A stretch of 64,000 nt of DNA, from positions 18,869 through 82,868 of the forward strand of contig CAJXNP010000021.1 of the NCBI GenBank assembly GCA_913057175.1, written 5' to 3'. A program made the position numbers and the translations under genes. Shown one piece after another: positions 3,496 to 17,126 of this stretch. The DNA is from an uncultured Cytophagales bacterium (lineage in GTDB: Bacteria; Bacteroidota; Bacteroidia; Cytophagales; Cyclobacteriaceae). A model generated the notes under the pieces. That model had not been told where the DNA came from, did no database searches, and was given only the letters and a program-made list of their open reading frames with translations. The number at the start of each line of letters is the position of its first letter. Position 1 is the first letter of the stretch.

Positions 3496-4311
3496 ATGAA
3501 TCTAAAAAAAATCAGTGTTTTGGGTTGTGGATGGCTGGGGCAACCCCTCGCTGTAGAATTAATTAAATCAGGATATCAAATCAACGGCTCTACAACGAGA
3601 GAAGATAACTTAATTTCCCTTTCTAAAGTTGGTATTCAATCATACCTGATCAATATTACGGACCAATCTATCAAAGGTAAAATCGAACTCTTTTTGGAAA
3701 GCGATTTATTGATTTTCAATATCCCACCGGTTAGAAGACCTGACATCCTTGACTTTTACCCAAAACTTATCGGCTTGCTCCTCCCCCACATAGAAAAATC
3801 ATCGATAAAAAAAGTCTTGTTCATAAGTTCAACTTCCGTTTACCAAAACATCAATGGAACGGTTGACGAAACAACAATACCTGAACCTGAAAAAGACTCA
3901 GGTATGGCGATATTAAAAGCAGAGTCAATGTTACAAAATTGCGATAAATTTAAAACGACCATTCTCCGGTTTGCAGGTTTGGCAGGCCCTGACAGGCATC
4001 CCGGACGTTTTCTTGCTGGCAAAACTGGACTTTCGGGAGCTTTAAATCCAGTAAACCTGATCCACCTGGACGATTGTATTGGAATCATTATTTCCATTGT
4101 TAAAAATGAGAAATGGGGAAAAATATATAATGGCTGCTATCCGAATCATCCAACAAAAATGGAGTTTTATACCCATGCAGCCACCCAATTAGGACTTACA
4201 CCTCCTGACTTTAGTTTGGACAAAAGAAGTGATTTCAAAGTAGTGAATGGGCAAAAAGTGGAAAGAGAACTAAATTATCAATACAAGAAAGACATTTTTA
4301 AACTTTCCTAA
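3496..4311 (+). CDS. NAD(P)-binding Rossmann-fold protein, SDR / NAD-dependent epimerase-dehydratase like
   Basis: 271 aa with an N-terminal dinucleotide-binding loop VLGCGWLGQPLA. Length and layout fit atypical SDR/epimerase proteins. Confidence 0.6.
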   Translation: MNLKKISVLGCGWLGQPLAVELIKSGYQINGSTTREDNLISLSKVGIQSYLINITDQSIKGKIELFLESDLLIFNIPPVRRPDILDFYPKLIGLLLPHIEKSSIKKVLFISSTSVYQNINGTVDETTIPEPEKDSGMAILKAESMLQNCDKFKTTILRFAGLAGPDRHPGRFLAGKTGLSGALNPVNLIHLDDCIGIIISIVKNEKWGKIYNGCYPNHPTKMEFYTHAATQLGLTPPDFSLDKRSDFKVVNGQKVERELNYQYKKDIFKLS

Positions 4312-4341
4312 AACTTTCTTTAAATCTCTCGTTTATAATTG

Positions 4342-4349
4342 TACATTTG
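4342..4349 (+). promoter_or_regulatory. candidate Bacteroidota sigma-A -7 box (TACATTTG) for the thi operon
   Basis: Exact match to TAnnTTTG, placed a few nt upstream of the riboswitch start. I found no clean TTTG -33 element at the canonical spacing. Confidence 0.4.
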
Positions 4350-4351
4350 AT

Positions 4352-4432
4352 AAAACTTTAGGGGTGTCCATTCGGACTGAGATTATACCCTCAAGACCTG
4401 ATCCTGGTAATGCTGGCGAAGGGAAAAGTATC
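4352..4432 (+). promoter_or_regulatory. TPP (THI-box) riboswitch
   Basis: GGGGTGTCC-ATTC-GGACTGAGATTATACCC...ACCTGATCCTGGTAATGCTGGCGAAGGGAA matches the conserved TPP aptamer core (GGGGUGC..CUGAGA..ACCC..CCUGAUCUGGAUAAUGCCAGCG.AGGGAA). It sits directly upstream of thiS-thiC. Confidence 0.9.
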
Positions 4433-4522
4433 CTACTCAGTTCGCTATACACTTCTTATTATTAATCAGGTTAATTGTGTTTCAATCGGATTAATTCCGA
4501 TCAAATATTGATTCAAAATTCT

Positions 4523-4726
4523 ATGAACATTAGTCTTAATGAAAAAGAAGTGTCCATTGACAAACAAATTTCACTGGAGGAGCTTTTTAATCAATACGAT
4601 ATAAAAGCCACAAAAGGAGTGGCTGTGGCAGTAAACGAAATGATCATACCAAAAAAAGAATGGTCGTCTTACAATCTGAGGGACAATGACAAAATATTGG
4701 TCATTACGGCAACTCAAGGAGGGTAG
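4523..4726 (+). CDS. thiS: sulfur carrier protein ThiS
   Basis: Internal ATG of ORF 4475..4726 gives a 67-aa protein, MNISLNEKEV...ILVITATQGG, ending in the diagnostic C-terminal Gly-Gly. It lies inside the thi operon. Confidence 0.85.
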   Translation: MNISLNEKEVSIDKQISLEELFNQYDIKATKGVAVAVNEMIIPKKEWSSYNLRDNDKILVITATQGG

Positions 4727-4807
4727 GGCAAATTAAAAACCGAAATACCAAGTAAGTAAAGTAATTGGTATTCGGTAATTGAAATCATTAAATCGACAGA
4801 TCACTAA

Positions 4808-6694
<1,887 letters not shown>

Positions 6695-7306
6695 ATGAAG
6701 ATTATTCTCATCACATCACCGGAAGAAGTCAAGCTGGAATTGGAAACAATCGACAGACTTTTTGAAGAAGGATCAGACCTTCTCCACATTCGGAAACCAG
6801 AATGGAGTGATGAGAAGCTATTGAAATATGTTCTTTCATTGCCTCAAAGTTTTAGAAATCAAATGGCTATTCATGGAAATGCATCAATAGCATTGGAATT
6901 GAAAGTTGGCGGTATTCATCAAAAATCGAATCAAAAGCCGGATGAAATTCCTACAAGTTGGAAAGGAAGAAAAAGCCGGTCGACTCATAGCATTGAGGAA
7001 ATTGAGAGTTATCAAAACAAATACGACTATTATTTCCTGAGTCCAGTGTTTGAAAGCATTTCCAAGCCTGGTTATAAGAGTTCTTTTGATGCAGATGAAT
7101 TGAATAACTATCTGACCAAAGAACGAGAGTTTGAAATCTTTGCCCTTGGAGGGATCGATTCTTCCCATGTACAACAGTGCGCTGAAATGGGTTTTGATGG
7201 AGTTGCAATCATGGGATCGATCTGGCAGAAAGATTCTTTGGAAGAAAGATTGAAGGAATTCAGGAGTATTAAGAACGGAGTAGATCAATTGAAGCAAGAA
7301 GTTTGA
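6695..7306 (+). CDS. thiamine-phosphate synthase-like protein (ThiE/TenI family paralog)
   Basis: 203 aa TIM-barrel-like protein with ThiE/TenI-type blocks (LLHIRKPEWS, YYFLSPVFESISKPG, ALGGI). It is the second member of this family in the same operon. See finding. Confidence 0.7.
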   Translation: MKIILITSPEEVKLELETIDRLFEEGSDLLHIRKPEWSDEKLLKYVLSLPQSFRNQMAIHGNASIALELKVGGIHQKSNQKPDEIPTSWKGRKSRSTHSIEEIESYQNKYDYYFLSPVFESISKPGYKSSFDADELNNYLTKEREFEIFALGGIDSSHVQQCAEMGFDGVAIMGSIWQKDSLEERLKEFRSIKNGVDQLKQEV

Positions 7307-7311
7307 TTAAG

Positions 7312-8070
7312 ATGCCAAAAAAACTGAAATATATCTTAAGCATTGCCGGACACGACCCATCAGGGGGTGCGGGAGTCCTTGCTGATATCAAGGTATTTGA
7401 ACATCATCAATTAATGGGTTTTGGTGTTGTAACGTCTATTACATTTCAAAATGATGCTGAATTTAATGGACTGGAATGGATAGCTCCTGAAAATATTTTC
7501 AATCAGCTCAAACCATTATTTAAATACGATATCGATGTTATAAAAATCGGATTGATAGAAAATCTGGAGGTTCTGTTGAAGATCATTGACTTATTAAAAA
7601 AGCGATGGCCTGAAGTAAAGATCATTTGGGATCCGATCTTAAAAGCATCTGCCGGGTATGAATTTCATTCCGAAATGGACTTGCAGGCATTGGTGAATGT
7701 TTTGAATAAAATTTATCTGATTACACCCAATTATCCTGAAATGGAAGCGATCGGAAGTGAAGATGCGTTGACGAATGCATTGAAAATCAGCAACTCCTGC
7801 TTTGTTTTCCTGAAGGGAGGACATCATTCTGAAAACGCAAATGACTTATTAATAAAAGATGGCAAAGTCCTTCGGGAATACAAGCAGGGGAAAATTTATG
7901 GTATTGAAAAACATGGCAGCGGATGCGTTTTGTCAAGCGCTATCGCTGCCGGGCTGGTTTTGGGAAAAGATGTTGAAACATCTTGCCGTGATGCAAAGGA
8001 ATACACACTTGATTTCCTGATCAGCAATGAGACATTATTAGGTCAGCATAATAATCCACTAATCGCATGA
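7312..8070 (+). CDS. thiD: hydroxymethylpyrimidine / phosphomethylpyrimidine kinase ThiD
   Basis: ORF 7303..8070 opens on TTG; ATG at 7312 (MPKKLKYILSIAGHDPSGGAGVLADIK). The GHDPSGGAG motif is typical of ThiD. Confidence 0.9.
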   Translation: MPKKLKYILSIAGHDPSGGAGVLADIKVFEHHQLMGFGVVTSITFQNDAEFNGLEWIAPENIFNQLKPLFKYDIDVIKIGLIENLEVLLKIIDLLKKRWPEVKIIWDPILKASAGYEFHSEMDLQALVNVLNKIYLITPNYPEMEAIGSEDALTNALKISNSCFVFLKGGHHSENANDLLIKDGKVLREYKQGKIYGIEKHGSGCVLSSAIAAGLVLGKDVETSCRDAKEYTLDFLISNETLLGQHNNPLIA

Positions 8071-10827: not shown

Positions 10828-11916
10828 ATGAAGTTATTTGTCTTCAGTCTCTCTTTTATACTTTTTTTGACTGGGTGTCAGGAAGAAGGAAACGACGACC
10901 CAAGAAGTGGGTTAAACCTTCCTGAGGATGTAGCTTTCACACACCTGCCAACTGACCTTTCCCGTATGTTGGAGTTTGGGGCAATTGGACAAATAAATGT
11001 CATACCGAAAGCCCATGGAGGTTTTGGAGTAAAAGATTATTACTCACCTACCCCCGACATACCTGTTTACGCCATGTCAGATGGCATTATTTACAACATT
11101 CGTTATGAAGCCAGGCACTATGAGGCGCCTTTCGCACCTGACTCACTAGTAGGGAAACCTTATGATGATTATACTCTTCATATTTATATTTCTCAAACTG
11201 CGGAAATGCATTTTGGCCACTTATCTAAATTGGCACCGGAAATATTGGAACAGGCCGGCAACCTGGAGATCGGAACTACCGAAAATGATGTAAGAATCCC
11301 TATCAGGGAAGGCCAGGTGTTGGCTAATATCGGCACACATCCCGGATTTGATGTTGGTTTATATGATGTAAAAAAGGAACATTATTTTGCTAATCCCGAT
11401 CGATATAGCATTGACTATCGCTCTGCCATCCCATTTACTGATTTTCTTCCTGAAAATTTAAGGGAAAAAGTTTGGGAAATTAATCCCAGAACTGTTGAAC
11501 CGCTGGGTGGGAAAATAAATTATGACCTGGATGGTACCATTTCAGGCAATTGGTTTCTGGAAGGAACAACTGGAGGAACCACCTGGGAAAATCAGCTCAT
11601 CATTGCTTACCACGAGCGATATGCAGATAGAATTACCATAGCAGATGCCAGTCCTCAAAAAGAAAGAGGCGAAAGCAATATTTGGTGGATCATAGGTAAT
11701 CAACCCTACCCTGAGGAAATCACTCCTGAATCCGGGAAAGTAAAATTAAATGTAGCGACCTGGTATAAATTTGCCACGACAGACACCCCACCCTCCGAGG
11801 GTATAATATTAATAGAGCTTACGGAAGACAATTTTTTAAATTTTGAGTACTTCCCGGGAGAATTACCCGAAAATGTCGAAGATTTCACCAGTAATATGAG
11901 GGTATATGAGAGGTAA
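10828..11916 (+). CDS. hypothetical lipoprotein
   Basis: 362 aa. Signal peptide plus lipobox-like LFLTGCQEE. A weak resemblance to the M23/LytM barrel (MHFGHLSKL...REGQVLANIGT) is not enough for a functional call. Confidence 0.6.
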   Translation: MKLFVFSLSFILFLTGCQEEGNDDPRSGLNLPEDVAFTHLPTDLSRMLEFGAIGQINVIPKAHGGFGVKDYYSPTPDIPVYAMSDGIIYNIRYEARHYEAPFAPDSLVGKPYDDYTLHIYISQTAEMHFGHLSKLAPEILEQAGNLEIGTTENDVRIPIREGQVLANIGTHPGFDVGLYDVKKEHYFANPDRYSIDYRSAIPFTDFLPENLREKVWEINPRTVEPLGGKINYDLDGTISGNWFLEGTTGGTTWENQLIIAYHERYADRITIADASPQKERGESNIWWIIGNQPYPEEITPESGKVKLNVATWYKFATTDTPPSEGIILIELTEDNFLNFEYFPGELPENVEDFTSNMRVYER

Positions 11917-12197
11917 GGTTTGTCGAAATTATTTTTTGTGGAAACGGACAGCTAAGATGAGTATGCCCCCAGTTGCTATTAGCGCTGGAGTTTATTTCTG
12001 GAAGAAGACTTTCAAATGTCTTCGTTCGCATATTCATTTTTAACGTTTGTTGGCATTTCGTTTTATCCCAGATTAAGCTAAAGCTTAATCTGCACTATCG
12101 GTTGACGAAAAACTGCGTTTTTGTCAAGGTTAACCCTGACAAAGCTCCGCTTTCGTCAGCCCAAAGGGCAAATTCCGCTCCAATGCGGAATTTGGGT

Positions 12198-12752
12198 TTA
12201 TTCATGTTGTATGTAAAACCGTTCTAATAAATCCATAAGTAAATCAGAAGGGTCTTCATTTCTATCTTTAATTAGCAGCATTTCTTTCAATTGGTCTTTA
12301 GTCATGAATAGAATAACTTTATTGTCTTGATTAAAAACTGTGTTTCTTTGACGATGTGCCGCTTCATTTGGAGTCCTGCTACAGATCATTACAGAAAGCC
12401 TCCCCATTGCTGCCGTCATGTAGTTTCGAGTTTGATTTACTTCTTCATGTCCGATTTCTGTGACATCATAATTTTTAAATTCAAAAAGGATCATTCTCGC
12501 ATCTAGCTCTAAAAATAGATGATGCCAATTTTTTGAATTAAAACTATTGGTTGGAGTAATATTCCGATTAGGTATTATTGCATCTCTTCTGTTTACCCCA
12601 GAGAACGTTCTTGCATGTCTTGTAGCAGGGTTCAAAGGTGGAACAAATAAGTAGGTTAATATTTCTGTGCAAATATTCTCAAATTGAGACCACCCTGCAT
12701 TACCTAACGGACAGGCATCCAATCTTTGTATGAAATCGTTTACCTGACTCAT
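12198..12752 (-). CDS. small PD-(D/E)xK nuclease-fold protein (gene C of the candidate defence operon)
   Basis: 184 aa. Motifs: GWSQFENICTEIL, then RRDAIIPN (D57), then ILFEFKNY (E91-x-K93), then VNQTRNYM. This is the spacing pattern of a minimal restriction-endonuclease-like core. Its ATG overlaps the stop of the upstream gene (ATGA at 12749-12752). Confidence 0.6.
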   Translation of the reverse strand: MSQVNDFIQRLDACPLGNAGWSQFENICTEILTYLFVPPLNPATRHARTFSGVNRRDAIIPNRNITPTNSFNSKNWHHLFLELDARMILFEFKNYDVTEIGHEEVNQTRNYMTAAMGRLSVMICSRTPNEAAHRQRNTVFNQDNKVILFMTKDQLKEMLLIKDRNEDPSDLLMDLLERFYIQHE

Positions 12753-13591
12753 TTCAAGAAATATTTATTCAGGAGTCTCTTACGTTTTGAAACTACTTTT
12801 TTGAGCTTTGTTCCATCCAAAACTTTAATTTCTATATTTCGGCTTCTCTGAATATCTTCTATAAATTCATCAGCTACAGAAGTCAAAACACTATTCGTAA
12901 TAAGAAGGATTTTAGCATCTATCCGATTTATATATTTGAAAGATTCAACAATTTGATGCAGGACACTGATACTAAACCTTTCCTCTCGATAAAACTTGGT
13001 CTCTATCATCCATATCTCTTTGGATGGGAAGCCGAATACATCCTTGTAGTAGGATTCAGCAATAAAATCAATACCAAAATCATTAACTCTTTGTTCCCTT
13101 TGAATATTTTTAAAGCCATATGCTCTCAATATGTCATATGACAATTCTTCAAAATCTCTAGGTGAAAAGTAATCAAAGGATAATTCAGGAATAATTTTAA
13201 GCTTTTGAATAATTTTCTGTAAGCCTTTATTAAAGTCGTTAGTTAGGTTTATAACTTCATATTCAAGAAAGTCACTTGGGATTTGGCACTTTTCTACTAA
13301 TACAGGAATGATGTTAACCTTTCTTTTTCGGGCTTCATCAAAAAAGTATTTTGGAAATTCAAAACGGAAATAATCAGAACCAAATAGTGATTGAGAAAGT
13401 AAAACCATCACTGTTTCGCTGGACTCATACATATACCTGATTTGGTCAAATACATTCTCTCCAACGCTTATGTCTTTGTAGTCAAAAACAACATCAATGT
13501 TCTCATTTTGTAATGCATCGGAAATTCTGTGTGCAACAGAACTATCATTGTGATTATATGAGATAAATACTCGATTACGACTATTAGTCAT
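12749..13591 (-). CDS. TIR domain - Mrr_cat restriction-endonuclease-domain fusion protein (gene B)
   Basis: 280 aa. The N-terminus VFISYNHNDSSVAHRISDALQNENIDVVFDYKDISVGENV...VMVLLSQSLFGSDYFRFEF is a TIR-type module with Glu78 at the conserved catalytic position. The C-terminus FEELSYDILRAYGFKNI...NDFGIDFIA (D175)...IWMIETKFY (E197-x-K199)...ILLITNSVLTS...VLDGTKLKKV follows the Mrr_cat consensus. Confidence 0.75.
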   Translation of the reverse strand: MTNSRNRVFISYNHNDSSVAHRISDALQNENIDVVFDYKDISVGENVFDQIRYMYESSETVMVLLSQSLFGSDYFRFEFPKYFFDEARKRKVNIIPVLVEKCQIPSDFLEYEVINLTNDFNKGLQKIIQKLKIIPELSFDYFSPRDFEELSYDILRAYGFKNIQREQRVNDFGIDFIAESYYKDVFGFPSKEIWMIETKFYREERFSISVLHQIVESFKYINRIDAKILLITNSVLTSVADEFIEDIQRSRNIEIKVLDGTKLKKVVSKRKRLLNKYFLK

Positions 13592-13601
13592 TTATTTAAA
13601 T

Positions 13602-14519
13602 TTAATGCATTCTATAGTAGATGTCCCCTGTCTGCGAGGCATGTCTACGTTTAATTAAAATGAGATCATTAAGTCTTATTCGTCCTTCAAGAACTTGCAT
13701 TAAATCCATGCCGTCCATTAGAATCATTGACTTTGTTAATGGGCTTCCGGTATCTGTACATTCTGCTGAAAATGGCCCTAGAGAAATGAATAAACCCAAG
13801 GTGTTCTTAAGCTTACCCTGAATTTTTCCTCCGAATTTGTAAAGGTCAGCAGCATTGACTGCTTGTTCTTGCCATTTGGCCTCTAAAAGATAGTCTGCAT
13901 TATCAAAAGTGAAAGCTCCATCAATTTGCTCTCCAGTTACTTTAAAGGCAGATTTAGGGTCTAAGTCGAAGAAATTAAAGAGTTTGTTTAGAAACTTCTC
14001 AAATTGAAATCCTTTTTGTTGAGAATTCGAATTTGAAGAAATTGAATAAAATTCAAGCTTTAACTCGTCAAGTTTTTGTTGATAAGAAATACTGTTATTT
14101 AACTTCTGCTTATTCTGCTCTCTTCTTTCTTCAGCCTTCTTTAGTTCTTCTATAATATCAAAATGCCCCTTGGCTTGTTGTCTCAATTTGTCTACAGCAG
14201 TTTTCGCTTTTTCAATCAGTCCTTTGTTTTGTTTTTCCCAGTATTCTAAATGGGAAAAATCGTTCATATTACCCACTTCCTGAATCAACTTCAATAAGTC
14301 AGTTTGAAACATGTCTTGTCGTTTAATCATCCTATCAATTAACTGAGAGACACTTTCATACTTTATATTCTCAGTCCAATCAATGGTAGCAATAATTGCA
14401 GTGTTGTCTATAGTTAGTTCTATGAATTGTCGGAGGTCTTTCTTGCGATAATAGATAGCGACCAAGGCGTCTTTTAAAGCCAGAACTGCATTTGCCGATA
14501 TTTTTTTTGTGAAGCCCAA
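13602..14519 (-). CDS. coiled-coil protein with C-terminal Mrr-like restriction endonuclease core (gene A)
   Basis: 305 aa if started at the TTG at 14519, which comes 2 codons after an in-frame TGA. The first Met is residue 64, so the start is uncertain. Central charged coiled coil (KKAEERREQNKQKLNNSISYQQKLDELK). The C-terminus GFQFEKFLNKLFNFF...GEQIDGAFTFDNADYLLEAKW...LGLFISLGPFS matches the REase (Mrr-type) D...E-x-K pattern. Confidence 0.65.
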   Translation of the reverse strand: MGFTKKISANAVLALKDALVAIYYRKKDLRQFIELTIDNTAIIATIDWTENIKYESVSQLIDRMIKRQDMFQTDLLKLIQEVGNMNDFSHLEYWEKQNKGLIEKAKTAVDKLRQQAKGHFDIIEELKKAEERREQNKQKLNNSISYQQKLDELKLEFYSISSNSNSQQKGFQFEKFLNKLFNFFDLDPKSAFKVTGEQIDGAFTFDNADYLLEAKWQEQAVNAADLYKFGGKIQGKLKNTLGLFISLGPFSAECTDTGSPLTKSMILMDGMDLMQVLEGRIRLNDLILIKRRHASQTGDIYYRMH

Positions 14520-14814: not shown

Positions 14815-15459
14815 TCAAAGCCTCCTTACATTTGGCCCATAAGGCTCTGCTGGTTCGCTTACCATGTCCTGGAAAAGTTCATTTAGGTCGATTTCAAATC
14901 CTTTCAGATAACTGCTTCGTGCAATATCCCCTTTTGTCAGGGGTTTGGAGGAAAGGTATGATCCATTTTCACCAAGCGTGAAAATGGTGAGGGTGTTATC
15001 GTTAGGTTGGACAACCCAATATTCCCTGACACCAGCCGATTCGTACAATTCAAATTTTTCATGTAGATCTTTTGAAACAGAACTTTTAGACACCACTTCC
15101 ACAATCAAATCCGGCGCTCCATTGCACCCTTTCTCGTCAAGCTTTCCCTGGTCGCAAACTACTGTTATATCGGGCTGAACTACACTAACAACATCCTTTT
15201 CGCTTTCAGAAGAAAACCGTGAAAAACGGACATCAAACGGAGCAGGAAACACTTTGCAACCTGTCCCCATTACAAATTTGTAAAAATAAAAATTGAGGGT
15301 TGAAACTATTTGCTGATGTTGCGAGGTTGGCGCAGGCGACATCCTGAAAATTTTTCCTTTGATCAGCTCTACCCTTTCACTAAACCGCCACAGCAAGTAA
15401 TCGGCGTAGGAATAAATTTTGTTGGTATCGAGCTGATTGATATCGGTGATCAACTTCAT
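14815..15459 (-). CDS. Uma2 family (DUF820) endonuclease, copy 1
   Basis: 214 aa. Motifs: YADYLLWRFSERVELIKGKIFRMSPAP, then VVQPDITVVCD, then GAPDLIVEVVSKSS, then KFELYESAGVREYWVV. This is the classic Uma2 / putative restriction endonuclease pattern. Confidence 0.85.
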   Translation of the reverse strand: MKLITDINQLDTNKIYSYADYLLWRFSERVELIKGKIFRMSPAPTSQHQQIVSTLNFYFYKFVMGTGCKVFPAPFDVRFSRFSSESEKDVVSVVQPDITVVCDQGKLDEKGCNGAPDLIVEVVSKSSVSKDLHEKFELYESAGVREYWVVQPNDNTLTIFTLGENGSYLSSKPLTKGDIARSSYLKGFEIDLNELFQDMVSEPAEPYGPNVRRL

Positions 15460-15554: not shown

Positions 15555-16199
15555 TCAAAGCCTCCTTACATTAGGCCCATATGGTTCCATGGGCTCTTCT
15601 ACAATATTTGGGAATATGTTGTCGATATTGATTACCAATCCATTAATCACCCGACTTTTTGCCGTATCACCGCTGGTTAGCAACTTACCCGGCATATATT
15701 TACCCTCGTCATCAAGTACATTAATTTGAATGGTATTTGCTACAGGGCTTACTATCCAATATTCTAAAACACCAGACGATTCATACAGCTCATATTTCTC
15801 ATGAAGATCCCTATTTGAACTCGATTTAGATAAAATTTCAAATACAACATCGGGAGCCCCAACACAGCCTTTTTCATCAATTTTATTATGATCACAAATA
15901 ATGACAATATCCGGTTGAACGACCGTGTAAATCTCTTTATCGCCTTCCTTTTGTTTATTTGGAAACCTAACATCAAAAGGTGCATGATAAACACTACATG
16001 GATTGTTGTTCAAATAGTCTGCAAGTTGTTTCAAAATATTGAAAGAAATCCTTTGATGTACTTCCGAGGGCGAAGGTGACATCCGGAAAATTTTTCCCTT
16101 GATCAGCTCTACTCGCTCACTAAACCTCCACAAAAGATAGTCGGCGTAGGAATAAACTTTATCGGTATCGAGTTGATTGATATCGGTAATCAGATTCAT
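15555..16199 (-). CDS. Uma2 family (DUF820) endonuclease, copy 2 (tandem paralog)
   Basis: 214 aa, same length and motif set as copy 1 (VVQPDIVIICD, GAPDVVFEILSKSS, KYELYESSGVLEYWIV). The N-terminal ~45 aa and the C-terminal PYGPNVRRL are nearly identical to copy 1. Confidence 0.85.
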   Translation of the reverse strand: MNLITDINQLDTDKVYSYADYLLWRFSERVELIKGKIFRMSPSPSEVHQRISFNILKQLADYLNNNPCSVYHAPFDVRFPNKQKEGDKEIYTVVQPDIVIICDHNKIDEKGCVGAPDVVFEILSKSSSNRDLHEKYELYESSGVLEYWIVSPVANTIQINVLDDEGKYMPGKLLTSGDTAKSRVINGLVINIDNIFPNIVEEPMEPYGPNVRRL

Positions 16200-16487: not shown

Positions 16488-17126
16488 ATGAAAGCGAGTT
16501 GTCAAAGCTTAACTTCTAAGGTAATAGAAGTAGCAGGAGATTATCTGGACGAATACCAGGAATTTCGCAAAAACGCAGCCAAGGTACTTGTACCAAACTT
16601 TTTGAACATTCCTATTCCTACCAATGTCCTGAACGACCTGATAGACCAGGCCATTGACCTTCAGACAAAAGCCTTAAAATCATACGGCGTTGTTGTTGGC
16701 CAGGGCAAGGGAAAGATTGGCCCGCGGTATCAAATCGTTCCGACCAAAAAGGTTACGGGCAAATTGGTGACAGAAAGGACCTTTTGTGTCCTTCCATCCA
16801 CTTTTGATAAACTGATCATCACTATTAAAAAAACAGATGGGAAAGCCGGCGCTGATGTAGCAGTTTGTGCCAAATATTCTAATGGCTCGATATACAATGA
16901 AAAAAGAAAAAGCATTGATAAGGGCAAAGACAGCAAAGGGGATGAAATTCGATTTGTCCTGGCAAACATGGAAGATAAATTCCTGACCATTCATTTGGTC
17001 CAAACCGGATTGGTCACAAATACCTGTAGCTATGACCTGTCAATTGAGGGCGAATACAACCCCAACAAACTGGAAGAAGAGACAAGTAGCGCCAAGGTTA
17101 TTAAAAGGGCCGTCAGGGTAAGTTAA
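16488..17126 (+). CDS. hypothetical protein
   Basis: 212-aa ORF in a clean intergenic slot, followed by a good intrinsic terminator. No signal peptide or recognisable motif. Confidence 0.55.
   Translation: MKASCQSLTSKVIEVAGDYLDEYQEFRKNAAKVLVPNFLNIPIPTNVLNDLIDQAIDLQTKALKSYGVVVGQGKGKIGPRYQIVPTKKVTGKLVTERTFCVLPSTFDKLIITIKKTDGKAGADVAVCAKYSNGSIYNEKRKSIDKGKDSKGDEIRFVLANMEDKFLTIHLVQTGLVTNTCSYDLSIEGEYNPNKLEEETSSAKVIKRAVRVS

What the first reader, a model, noticed from the sequence alone, without database searches (positions are those of the whole stretch)
12198..14519. Three-gene operon combining a TIR domain with three different PD-(D/E)xK nuclease folds: candidate uncharacterised anti-phage defence system
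Seen in the sequence:
- Three same-strand ORFs are packed with a 10-nt gap (13592-13601) and a 4-nt ATGA overlap (12749-12752), so they are almost certainly one transcription and translation unit.
- Gene B (280 aa) fuses a TIR-type module to an Mrr_cat-type core. The TIR part reads VFISYNHND...LLSQSLFGSDYFRFEF, with Glu78 at the position of the catalytic Glu of NAD-cleaving TIRs. The Mrr_cat part reads NDFGIDFIA / IWMIETKFY, giving D175 and E197-x-K199.
- Gene A (305 aa) has a helical/coiled-coil N-terminal half. Its C-terminal half is a second Mrr-like core (GFQFEKFLNKLF, then GEQIDGAF, then YLLEAKW).
- Gene C (184 aa) is a third, minimal D...E-x-K protein (RRDAIIPN, then ILFEFKNY).

Established knowledge: bacterial TIR domains act as NADases or signal-nucleotide synthases in Thoeris, some CBASS systems and other abortive-infection systems. 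Mrr_cat folds bind or cut DNA.

Inference:
- There is no methyltransferase, so this is not classical R-M.
- There is no SIR2/Macro/SLOG ThsA-like effector, so it does not match Thoeris as I know it.
- There is no ATPase, helicase or cyclase.
- I do not recognise the TIR-Mrr_cat plus two nuclease-fold partners as a named system.
- A plausible logic is that the nuclease-fold modules sense foreign DNA and couple this to TIR-mediated NAD+ depletion or signalling.
Basis: partly seen in the sequence, partly recalled or inferred. Interest (0 to 1): 0.9.

Follow-up and report, generated by a model that had tools for sequence, protein, structure and literature searches.

The report
Two-gene TIR–nuclease module plus unrelated neighbour
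The three genes are real, but only two of them (a TIR–Mrr nuclease fusion and a very conserved small nuclease-fold partner) travel together across bacteria and archaea; they look like an unnamed, untested anti-phage module, and the third gene is an independent neighbour.

Summary
The sequence observation holds. Three minus-strand ORFs lie at 12198-14519 with a 10-nt gap and an ATGA overlap.
- B is TIR_2 (3e-19) plus Mrr_cat (1e-12).
- A has a C-terminal Mrr_cat domain (2e-7).
- C has an invariant D…ExK motif and models as a divergent PD-(D/E)xK fold.

The three-gene interpretation does not hold.
- In 80 species-level genomes carrying C, from about 12 bacterial phyla and three archaeal groups, a TIR–Mrr_cat gene sits directly upstream. 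It usually overlaps C by 1-8 nt (about 75 of 77 assessable loci).
- An A homologue is nearby in only 4 of 84 loci, at varying positions and strands.
- The closest relatives of B lack A, and the closest relatives of A lack B and C.
- A belongs to a large family of its own (2,758 clusters).

B's Mrr_cat domain plus C is a split form of a widespread single-chain Mrr_cat–C-like protein. Full TIR–Mrr_cat–C fusions also exist.

C is unusually conserved: 64% mean identity, against 37% for B.

I found no PADLOC, NCBIfam or Pfam model for the pair, and no paper that names it.

Most likely function, by inference only: B and C form a nuclease complex that couples DNA recognition or cleavage to TIR NADase activity. 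A Thoeris-like signalling route remains a live rival.

The parts
12749..13591 (-). Gene B: 280-aa TIR-Mrr_cat fusion, core component 1
   Evidence: ORF. Pfam TIR_2 3e-19 plus Mrr_cat 1e-12. 61 full-length homologues. Found directly upstream of C in about 75 of 77 assessable species loci.
13211..13570 (-). TIR domain of B (residues 8-127); catalytic-position Glu78 is the codon at 13358-13360
   Evidence: E78 is conserved in 92% of 77 orthologues. The Foldseek neighbours are NAD-consuming TIRs: SPARTA TIR-APAZ, TIR-STING, Cat1 and SARM1.
12797..13171 (-). Mrr_cat domain of B (residues 141-265); D175 at 13067-13069, E197 at 13001-13003, K199 at 12995-12997
   Evidence: These residues are 96-99% conserved. 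The structural neighbour is the MspJI nuclease domain. The domain is homologous to the Mrr_cat domain that precedes the C-like domain in single-chain relatives.
12198..12752 (-). Gene C: 184-aa highly conserved PD-(D/E)xK-like protein, core component 2; D57 at 12582-12584, E91 at 12480-12482, K93 at 12474-12476; invariant C-terminus FYIQHE
   Evidence: Mean pairwise identity is 64% across bacteria and archaea. It matches only the C-terminal ~160 positions of the PADLOC PDC-M36A models.
12749..12752 (-). ATGA stop/start overlap of B and C (translational coupling)
   Evidence: An overlap of 1-8 nt recurs in most of the 80 species loci.
13602..14519 (-). Gene A: 305-aa protein with a helical N-terminal half and a C-terminal Mrr_cat domain (D200, E213, K215). 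An adjacent gene, not part of the conserved module.
   Evidence: It occurs without B/C in L093, L094 and L097. It is present in only 4 of 84 B+C loci, at variable positions.
12169..12194 (+). GC-rich hairpin just past the stop of C, between convergent genes; a possible bidirectional terminator
   Evidence: Consensus scan only. This is not evidence of function.

Best explanation
The functional unit is a two-gene module, B (TIR-Mrr_cat) plus C (a small PD-(D/E)xK-like protein). It moves horizontally as a pair among bacteria and archaea and most likely acts in defence against phages or other invading DNA. Gene A is an independent Mrr_cat gene that lies next to the module in this genome.

Shown here:
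- B and C are translationally coupled and co-inherited.
- B's Mrr_cat domain plus C correspond to the two domains of a widespread single-chain Mrr_cat-C-like protein. They therefore very probably assemble into one heteromeric nuclease-type module carrying an N-terminal TIR.
- The catalytic residues of all three domains are conserved.

Inferred:
- The Mrr_cat/C module binds or cuts a nucleic-acid trigger, such as non-self or modified DNA.
- Assembly on that trigger brings TIR domains together.
- TIR NADase activity (Glu78) then depletes NAD+, possibly alongside DNA cleavage. The result is growth arrest or abortive infection.

The confidence of 0.5 is for the whole statement. The two-gene architecture alone is about 0.9, a defence role about 0.7, and the specific trigger-to-NADase mechanism about 0.35.
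For: - Pairing: in 80 species-level loci found with C, a 276-300-aa TIR_2+Mrr_cat ORF ends at or overlaps the C start in about 75 of 77 assessable cases.
- Co-variation: B and C pairwise identities co-vary (Spearman 0.67).
- Natural fusions TIR-Mrr_cat-C exist: L032 at 488 aa, and P0304 and P0307.
- Of 108 longer proteins with a C-like domain, 45 have Mrr_cat immediately N-terminal to it. B's Mrr_cat domain aligns to those domains (E down to 7e-20) and ends where their C-like domain begins.
- Active sites are kept: E78 92%, D175 96%, E197 97%, K199 99%, and C D57/E91/K93 at least 95%.
- B's TIR is structurally nearest to oligomerisation-activated NADase TIRs: SPARTA, TIR-STING, Cat1 and SARM1. 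Its best PADLOC hit is the CBASS TIR-SAVED effector.
- C-like domains are also fused to SIR2, Macro, an ABC-type ATPase, HEAT repeats and a C5 DNA methyltransferase. This is typical conflict-system modularity, and the methyltransferase fusion fits a real DNA endonuclease.
- Neighbours include Hachiman (HamA plus helicase), Cap4 plus DUF87, SIR2 plus DUF87, an OLD-type ATPase, methyltransferases, integrases, HerA/DUF4297, reverse transcriptases and Cas1. Here they are two Uma2 genes (PDC-S03).
- The island has low GC: 0.34 against 0.44 in the flanking thiamine genes.
- A is dispensable.
Against: - There is no experimental evidence for defence, NADase activity, nuclease activity or B-C binding.
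- Defence-island enrichment was judged qualitatively, not statistically.
- C is far more conserved than B (64% against 37%). That is the pattern of a conserved effector with a fast-evolving sensor, so it fits a Thoeris-like scheme at least as well as the proposed one.
- Conserved catalytic residues in both nuclease-fold domains suggest they cut rather than merely sense, so the TIR could be a regulator or a signal generator instead of the killing activity.
- The fold assignment for C rests on weak structural matches (E >= 3e-3, TM 0.3-0.5).
- C was not found in the phage collection, and the true B+C pair was not seen on plasmids, so mobility is inferred from phylogenetic spread only.
- One locus (L077) has C without B. 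One (L089) has a B whose N-terminal domain is not recognised as TIR.
Confidence: 0.5

Rival explanations
1. Thoeris-like signalling. B is a ThsB-type sensor whose TIR makes an ADPR-derived signal on infection. C is the signal-activated nuclease effector.
For: - The arrangement is a two-gene TIR-plus-small-partner operon.
- B is variable and C is strongly conserved (37% against 64% mean identity), as with ThsB and ThsA.
- B has weak hits to ThsB models and to Thoeris type III ThcB4.
- Yirmiya et al. 2025 (bioRxiv 10.64898/2025.12.03.692087) report 29 putative Thoeris configurations whose effectors include 'DNases', most of them untested.
Against: - C-like domains most often occur fused to Mrr_cat with no TIR at all (45 of 108), so the domain does not generally depend on a TIR signal.
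- B+C is a split form of that fusion, and full fusions exist, which points to a physical complex.
- C has no recognisable SLOG, Macro, SAVED or other ligand-binding domain.
- B scores far below the NCBIfam cut-off for ThcB4 (36 bits against 220).
- B's TIR is structurally closer to NADase effector TIRs.
- Peptides from the TIR domains of six B orthologues were not found in the stored part of that paper's Table S1. That table is truncated, so this is not conclusive.
Confidence: 0.22
2. One reading: A, B and C are one three-component system in which all three nuclease-fold modules cooperate.
For: - A sits 10 nt upstream of B on the same strand.
- An A homologue also abuts B+C in Marivirga (L015, 11-12 nt downstream of C) and lies 211-216 nt downstream in an Ignavibacteriae MAG (L028).
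Against: - A is missing from about 80 of 84 B+C loci.
- A is missing from the nearest B relatives.
- A's nearest relatives stand alone.
- When A is present, its position and strand vary.
- The A family is much larger than the B+C family: 2,758 clusters found for A against 715 for C at 90% identity, in capped searches.
- A's Mrr_cat domain shows no similarity to the domains that pair with C-like domains.
Confidence: 0.06
3. B+C is essentially a restriction-type (type IV-like) nuclease that directly degrades invading DNA. The TIR serves only as an oligomerisation or regulatory domain, with no NAD+ chemistry relevant to the phenotype.
For: - Both nuclease-fold active sites are conserved.
- The TIR-less Mrr_cat-C-like single-chain proteins are the commonest architecture.
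- A C5 methyltransferase-C-like fusion resembles a combined restriction-modification enzyme.
- B's Mrr_cat domain resembles the nuclease domain of the modification-dependent enzyme MspJI.
Against: - The TIR catalytic-position Glu is retained in 92% of orthologues across phyla. That would not be expected for a purely structural TIR.
- Related C-like proteins carry other NAD-linked domains (SIR2, Macro) in the same N-terminal position.
Confidence: 0.17
4. B+C is not a defence system. It is an addiction or toxin-antitoxin-like selfish module, or a DNA-repair function.
For: - The distribution is patchy and looks horizontally transferred.
- The gene pair is tightly coupled.
- There is no direct evidence for a defence role.
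Against: - The domain content (TIR plus nuclease folds) and the neighbourhoods match defence islands.
- B is homologous to defence-associated TIR models.
- No antitoxin-like small DNA-binding partner is present.
Confidence: 0.05

Closest known systems
Thoeris (ThsB TIR plus effector; types I-XI)
   Same: Both are two-gene units with a TIR protein that keeps the catalytic Glu. Both occur in defence-island contexts. Both pair a variable TIR protein with a conserved partner.
   Different: The partner C has no known signal-binding domain. The TIR protein itself carries a catalytic Mrr_cat domain. B+C is a split version of a single-chain protein and also occurs fully fused. Scores against ThsB/ThcB models are far below the cut-offs.
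SPARTA short-pAgo systems, including the Mrr-TIR-APAZ subclade (Koopal et al. 2022, PMC9097488)
   Same: A TIR NADase is combined with an Mrr-type nuclease domain in one polypeptide and works with a co-encoded partner. The TIR is structurally closest to the SPARTA TIR. The proposed logic is the same: nucleic-acid recognition, then TIR oligomerisation, then NAD+ loss.
   Different: There is no APAZ domain and no Argonaute. The domain order is TIR then Mrr, not Mrr then TIR. The partner is a 184-aa PD-(D/E)xK-like protein.
PADLOC candidate system PDC-M36 (component A)
   Same: C and all C-like domains match the C-terminal ~160 positions of the two PDC-M36A models (E 1e-17).
   Different: Only that domain is shared. 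The N-terminal ~280 positions of the model are not matched, and B hits no PDC-M36 model. The enterobacterial plasmid relatives are ~540-aa 'ATP-binding proteins' with a different neighbour.
Mrr / type IV modification-dependent restriction enzymes (Mrr, MspJI)
   Same: Both have an Mrr_cat catalytic core with D...ExK. B's domain resembles the MspJI nuclease domain.
   Different: There is no Mrr_N or SRA-type DNA-recognition domain. A TIR domain is added. An obligatory second nuclease-fold subunit is present.
TIR effectors of CBASS, Pycsar and type III CRISPR (TIR-SAVED, TIR-STING, Cat1)
   Same: The TIR domains are similar by sequence and structure. These TIRs are activated by oligomerisation.
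   Different: There is no cyclase, SAVED, STING or CARF sensor, and no signalling enzyme in the locus.

Membership tests
Thoeris | TIR-domain protein with a conserved catalytic Glu | tested here: met
   TIR_2 3e-19. E78 is conserved in 92% of 77 orthologues.
Thoeris | Match to a curated ThsB/ThcB model above its cut-off | tested here: not met
   NCBIfam ThcB4 scores 35.8 bits against a cut-off of 220. PADLOC ThsB hits score only 15-28 bits over part of the profile.
Thoeris | Separate effector with a domain that binds the TIR-made signal (SLOG, Macro, DUF2270, DUF6650, SLATT and others) | tested here: not met
   C has no Pfam or NCBIfam hit. Its fold is PD-(D/E)xK-like only. An unrecognised pocket cannot be excluded.
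Thoeris | The TIR produces a diffusible ADPR-derived signal on infection | not testable with these tools
   This needs LC-MS of lysates from infected cells.
PADLOC PDC-M36 | Full-length match to PDC-M36A together with a PDC-M36B partner | tested here: not met
   C covers only profile positions 289-449 of 457. Neither A nor B hits any PDC-M36 model.
SPARTA / short pAgo (Mrr-)TIR-APAZ | APAZ domain on the TIR protein and an adjacent short Argonaute | tested here: not met
   B is TIR+Mrr_cat only and ends at residue 280. C and the flanking genes show no PIWI/MID hit. No recurrent third gene appears in 84 loci.
Type IV restriction (Mrr family) | Mrr_cat catalytic domain with D...ExK | tested here: met
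   B: 1e-12, with D175/E197/K199. A: 1.8e-7, with D200/E213/K215.
Type IV restriction (Mrr family) | N-terminal DNA-recognition domain (Mrr_N winged helix or SRA) | tested here: not met
   No such Pfam hit in A, B or C.
Classical restriction-modification | Cognate methyltransferase in the unit | tested here: not met
   There is none between 10.8 and 17.1 kb of the window. Methyltransferase-like neighbours occur in only about 7 of 84 loci, at variable distance.
CBASS / Pycsar TIR effectors | Adjacent CD-NTase or pyrimidine cyclase, and a SAVED/STING-type sensor on the TIR protein | tested here: not met
   No such domains in the locus.

The most novel reading that the evidence does not exclude
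B+C is a so-far unnamed defence system found across prokaryotes. In it, a TIR NADase is wired to a split two-domain PD-(D/E)xK nuclease. The small subunit C is held at about 64% identity between bacteria and archaea, and it represents a domain family (about 1,900 clusters at 50% identity) that Pfam does not cover. If the TIR either licenses or is licensed by DNA cleavage, this would be a new way of coupling DNA sensing to NAD+ chemistry without an Argonaute, a STAND NTPase or a cyclic-nucleotide relay.
Probability: 0.4. Interest if true: 0.7.

Novelty: new variant of a known kind. Interest (0 to 1): 0.55.

Why it matters
If B+C protects against phages, it adds a compact two-gene TIR system (about 1.4 kb) that occurs in Bacteroidota, Cyanobacteriota, Acidobacteriota, Pseudomonadota, Bacillota, Planctomycetota and archaea.

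It would also give a function to the C-like domain. That domain is missing from Pfam and NCBIfam, yet it appears in roughly 1,900 protein clusters fused to Mrr_cat, TIR, SIR2, Macro, ATPase, HEAT and methyltransferase modules.

The very strong conservation of C, including its exact C-terminus FYIQHE, alongside a fast-evolving TIR-Mrr_cat partner is unusual for defence genes. It points to a constrained interaction worth solving structurally.

For annotation, the practical lesson is that the unit is two genes. Tight spacing with gene A does not make a three-gene system.

Tried and rejected
- Three-gene system: rejected on co-occurrence.
- A variable 'third component' upstream of B: the upstream genes in other genomes are unrelated to each other and to A. 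They include DUF4365, RelA_SpoT, 4HBT, a BlaR peptidase and lipoprotein-like unknowns. Clustering 690 neighbouring ORFs gave no recurrent family.
- A conserved small partner for A: the ORFs downstream of A in L094 and L097 are unrelated to each other.
- C as a diverged Mrr_cat copy: hhalign found nothing.
- Sequence search of C against PDB chains: no hit even at E 10.
- Membership in PDC-M36: rejected, because only one domain is shared.
- Literature: I found no paper containing 'PDC-M36', 'TIR-Mrr', or Mrr_cat together with TIR_2.
- Yirmiya et al. Table S1 is stored truncated, at about the letter D of the effector names. I therefore could not establish whether B+C is among their untested putative types.
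- Promoter and terminator scans were no better than shuffled controls and were not used as evidence.
- No tRNA or flanking repeat marks an integration site.
- The PADLOC scan of 119 neighbour ORFs returns only per-family counts. I therefore make no quantitative claim of defence enrichment.
Full report
**1. The observation**

- A is 13602-14519 (305 aa, TTG start).
- B is 12749-13591 (280 aa).
- C is 12198-12752 (184 aa).

The A-B spacer is 10 nt (ATTTAAATAA) and B and C overlap by ATGA.

Domain content:
- Pfam gives B a TIR_2 domain (residues 8-127, E 3e-19) and an Mrr_cat domain (residues 141-265, E 1e-12).
- Pfam gives A an Mrr_cat domain (residues 169-276, E 1.8e-7) after a helical N-terminal half.
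- C has no Pfam or NCBIfam hit.
- Glu78 of B aligns with the Glu of TIR-STING and TLR TIR domains.

All three are real genes with many full-length homologues. The 12.2-14.5 kb stretch has 34% GC, against 44% in the adjacent thiG/thiH region. Two Uma2 genes lie just upstream.

**2. Which genes belong together**

Contexts of B homologues all show a 184-aa gene overlapping the end of B by 4 nt, but a different gene upstream each time. This was seen in Tenacibaculum, Empedobacter and Paraflavitalea. Contexts of C homologues show the same pattern in a marine deltaproteobacterial-type contig, an Ignavibacteriae MAG and Winogradskyella.

A scan of one genome per species with the C alignment gave 107 confirmed loci, of which 80 were kept. 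They come from:
- Bacteroidota, four classes of Pseudomonadota, Ignavibacteriota, Bacillota and Cyanobacteriota;
- Planctomycetota, Acidobacteriota, Chloroflexota, Methylomirabilota, Armatimonadota and Actinomycetota;
- three archaeal groups.

In these loci tblastn finds the TIR and Mrr_cat halves of B immediately upstream of C almost everywhere. The upstream ORF is 276-300 aa and usually overlaps the C start by 1-8 nt. Loci that looked like exceptions also carry TIR_2+Mrr_cat by Pfam.

The remaining exceptions are few:
- three cases at contig edges;
- one orphan C (L077);
- one B whose N-terminal domain Pfam does not recognise as TIR (L089);
- one locus where B and C are a single 488-aa ORF (L032).

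Gene A behaves differently.
- An A homologue is near B+C in only 4 of 84 non-redundant loci. The offsets are +12 nt and +211 nt downstream of C, 1.7 kb upstream, and 4.3 kb away on the opposite strand.
- The closest B relatives (81-82% identity) have B+C but no A.
- The closest A relatives (83-88% identity) have no B or C.
- The A family is large (2,758 clusters), with invariant D200, E213 and K215.
- Clustering 690 ORFs that neighbour B+C found no family that recurs as a third component.

The conserved unit is therefore B+C. A is a separate single-gene Mrr_cat protein that is adjacent here.

**3. What B and C are**

Conservation across 77 species:
- B keeps E78 (92%), D175 (96%), E197 (97%) and K199 (99%).
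- C keeps D57, E91 and K93 (at least 95%), together with about 50 other positions.
- C also keeps the exact C-terminus FYIQHE.
- Mean pairwise identity is 64% for C against 37% for B (TIR 33%, Mrr_cat 40%).
- B and C identities co-vary (rho 0.67).

Structure of C:
- The AF2 model (pLDDT 83) has a PD-(D/E)xK-type order of elements, with D57 and E91-x-K93 on consecutive core strands.
- Foldseek finds only weak matches, all PD-(D/E)xK folds: RPB5 N-domain, FokI, Nt.BspD6I, EcoT38I and Shedu.
- There is no profile similarity to B's Mrr_cat domain.

Structure of B (pLDDT 81):
- The TIR half matches SPARTA TIR-APAZ, TIR-STING, Cat1 and SARM1.
- The Mrr_cat half matches the MspJI nuclease domain.

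A profile search of 1.84 billion representatives with the C alignment found 1,940 clusters, nearly always with the C-like domain at the C-terminus. Of 108 longer members:
- 45 have Mrr_cat directly N-terminal to the C-like domain (the ~330-aa class);
- two are TIR-Mrr_cat-C fusions;
- others carry Macro, SIR2, HEAT repeats, an ABC-type ATPase, a receiver domain, a QueC-like domain or a C5 DNA methyltransferase.

B's Mrr_cat domain aligns to the Mrr_cat domains of those fusions (E down to 7e-20) and ends where their C-like domain starts. A's Mrr_cat domain does not align to them. So B(Mrr_cat)+C is a split form of a common two-domain protein, with a TIR added at the N-terminus.

In PADLOC, the C-like domain is the C-terminal ~160 positions of PDC-M36A and nothing more. 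Enterobacterial conjugative plasmids carry ~540-aa 'ATP-binding proteins' with this domain. No phage record has it.

**4. How it most likely works**

Shown: co-inheritance, translational coupling, fusion and fission with Mrr_cat, and conserved catalytic residues in all three domains.

Inferred: B and C form a heteromeric nuclease-type module. Engagement with a nucleic-acid trigger assembles the TIR domains and switches on NAD+ hydrolysis, with or without DNA cleavage, giving abortive infection. This reading rests on three points:
- the SPARTA-, TIR-STING- and Cat1-like TIR;
- NAD-linked domains (TIR, SIR2, Macro) occupying the same position in relatives;
- defence-type neighbours.

The main rival is a Thoeris-like relay, with TIR-made signal activating C.
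- The variable-B, conserved-C pattern favours it.
- Disfavouring it are the TIR-less Mrr_cat-C majority, the full fusions, and the lack of any signal-binding domain in C.

A restriction-only reading, in which the TIR is purely structural, is weakened by retention of Glu78.

**5. Comparison with what is known, and novelty**

The pair fails the tested defining features of these families (see the membership table):
- Thoeris (score cut-offs and effector type);
- PDC-M36;
- SPARTA (no APAZ, no Argonaute);
- classical or Mrr-type restriction;
- CBASS/Pycsar.

Koopal et al. 2022 (PMC9097488) describe Mrr-TIR-APAZ proteins in a SPARTA subclade. That is the nearest precedent for Mrr and TIR in one chain.

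Yirmiya et al. 2025 list 29 putative Thoeris configurations, including 'DNase' effectors. None of the 30 cloned operons resembles B+C. Their Table S1 is stored truncated, so I cannot exclude that B+C is among their untested candidates.

No other paper in the searchable library names the pair.

I rate it a new variant of a known kind: a TIR-based defence module.

**6. Verdict**

- The defence role is likely but untested.
- The mechanism is inferred.
- Interest is moderate (0.55). The system is compact, widespread and apparently unnamed, and its small subunit is strikingly conserved. However, TIR-plus-nuclease modularity is itself familiar to the field.

Noticed in passing
window 14815-15459 and 15555-16199 (- strand): Two tandem 214-aa Uma2-family (PD-(D/E)xK) paralogues, 740 nt apart. 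They match PADLOC candidate PDC-S03 (E 1e-52 and 3e-53). With A, B and C they make five nuclease-fold genes in a row on one strand.
   Followed up: partly
L032 5050-6516; proteins P0304 (464 aa) and P0307 (471 aa): Natural single-chain TIR-Mrr_cat-C fusions, in a Leptolyngbyaceae MAG and in two representatives from the 1.84-billion-protein library. An assembly frameshift in L032 was not excluded.
   Followed up: partly
L010/L028 (Ignavibacteriae MAG) 3999-7692: A 362-aa RelA_SpoT-domain gene lies 72 nt upstream of B, and an A-like gene (44% identity) lies ~211-216 nt downstream of C. This may be a small island of stress or defence genes.
   Followed up: no
L089 5164-5994 (Bacillus siamensis KCTC 13613): The B orthologue has a clear Mrr_cat domain, but Pfam does not recognise its N-terminal 130 residues as TIR at E<0.01. 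This may be a degenerate or replaced TIR. The strain is a tractable Bacillus source of the pair.
   Followed up: no
L077 5962-6516 (Armatimonadota MAG): An intact C gene with no TIR-Mrr_cat gene upstream. This was the only orphan C among the assessable loci.
   Followed up: partly
L098 3942-5570 (Enterobacter roggenkampii IncF plasmid; similar hits in 132 plasmid records, mostly Escherichia and Klebsiella): A 542-aa 'ATP-binding protein' with a C-like C-terminal domain (27% identity), followed by a 334-aa hypothetical protein and flanked by IS elements and a mer operon. It probably corresponds to PADLOC PDC-M36.
   Followed up: partly
P0370 (556 aa), P0448 (492 aa), P0351 (602 aa), P0347 (712 aa): The C-like domain is fused to a C5 DNA methyltransferase, a SIR2_2 domain, an ABC-type ATPase (AAA_15/AAA_21) and HEAT repeats respectively. 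It looks like a widely reused nuclease-type module that Pfam does not cover.
   Followed up: partly
L094 6906-7457 and L097 5925-6416: In two genomes gene A is followed, at 6-11 nt, by a small ORF (183 aa with DUF8327; 163 aa with predicted hydrophobic stretches). The two are unrelated to each other and to C.
   Followed up: partly
window 16488-17126 (+) and 10828-11916 (+): The genes flanking the island are a 212-aa protein with no Pfam hit and a 362-aa protein with only a weak lipoprotein-signal match (E 0.43). Neither has a recognisable family.
   Followed up: no
L003 6924-7862, L060 5858-6820, L092 2829-3491: DUF4365 proteins, another PD-(D/E)xK family and the effector domain of SPARDA systems, recur next to B+C in 3 of 84 loci.
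   Followed up: no
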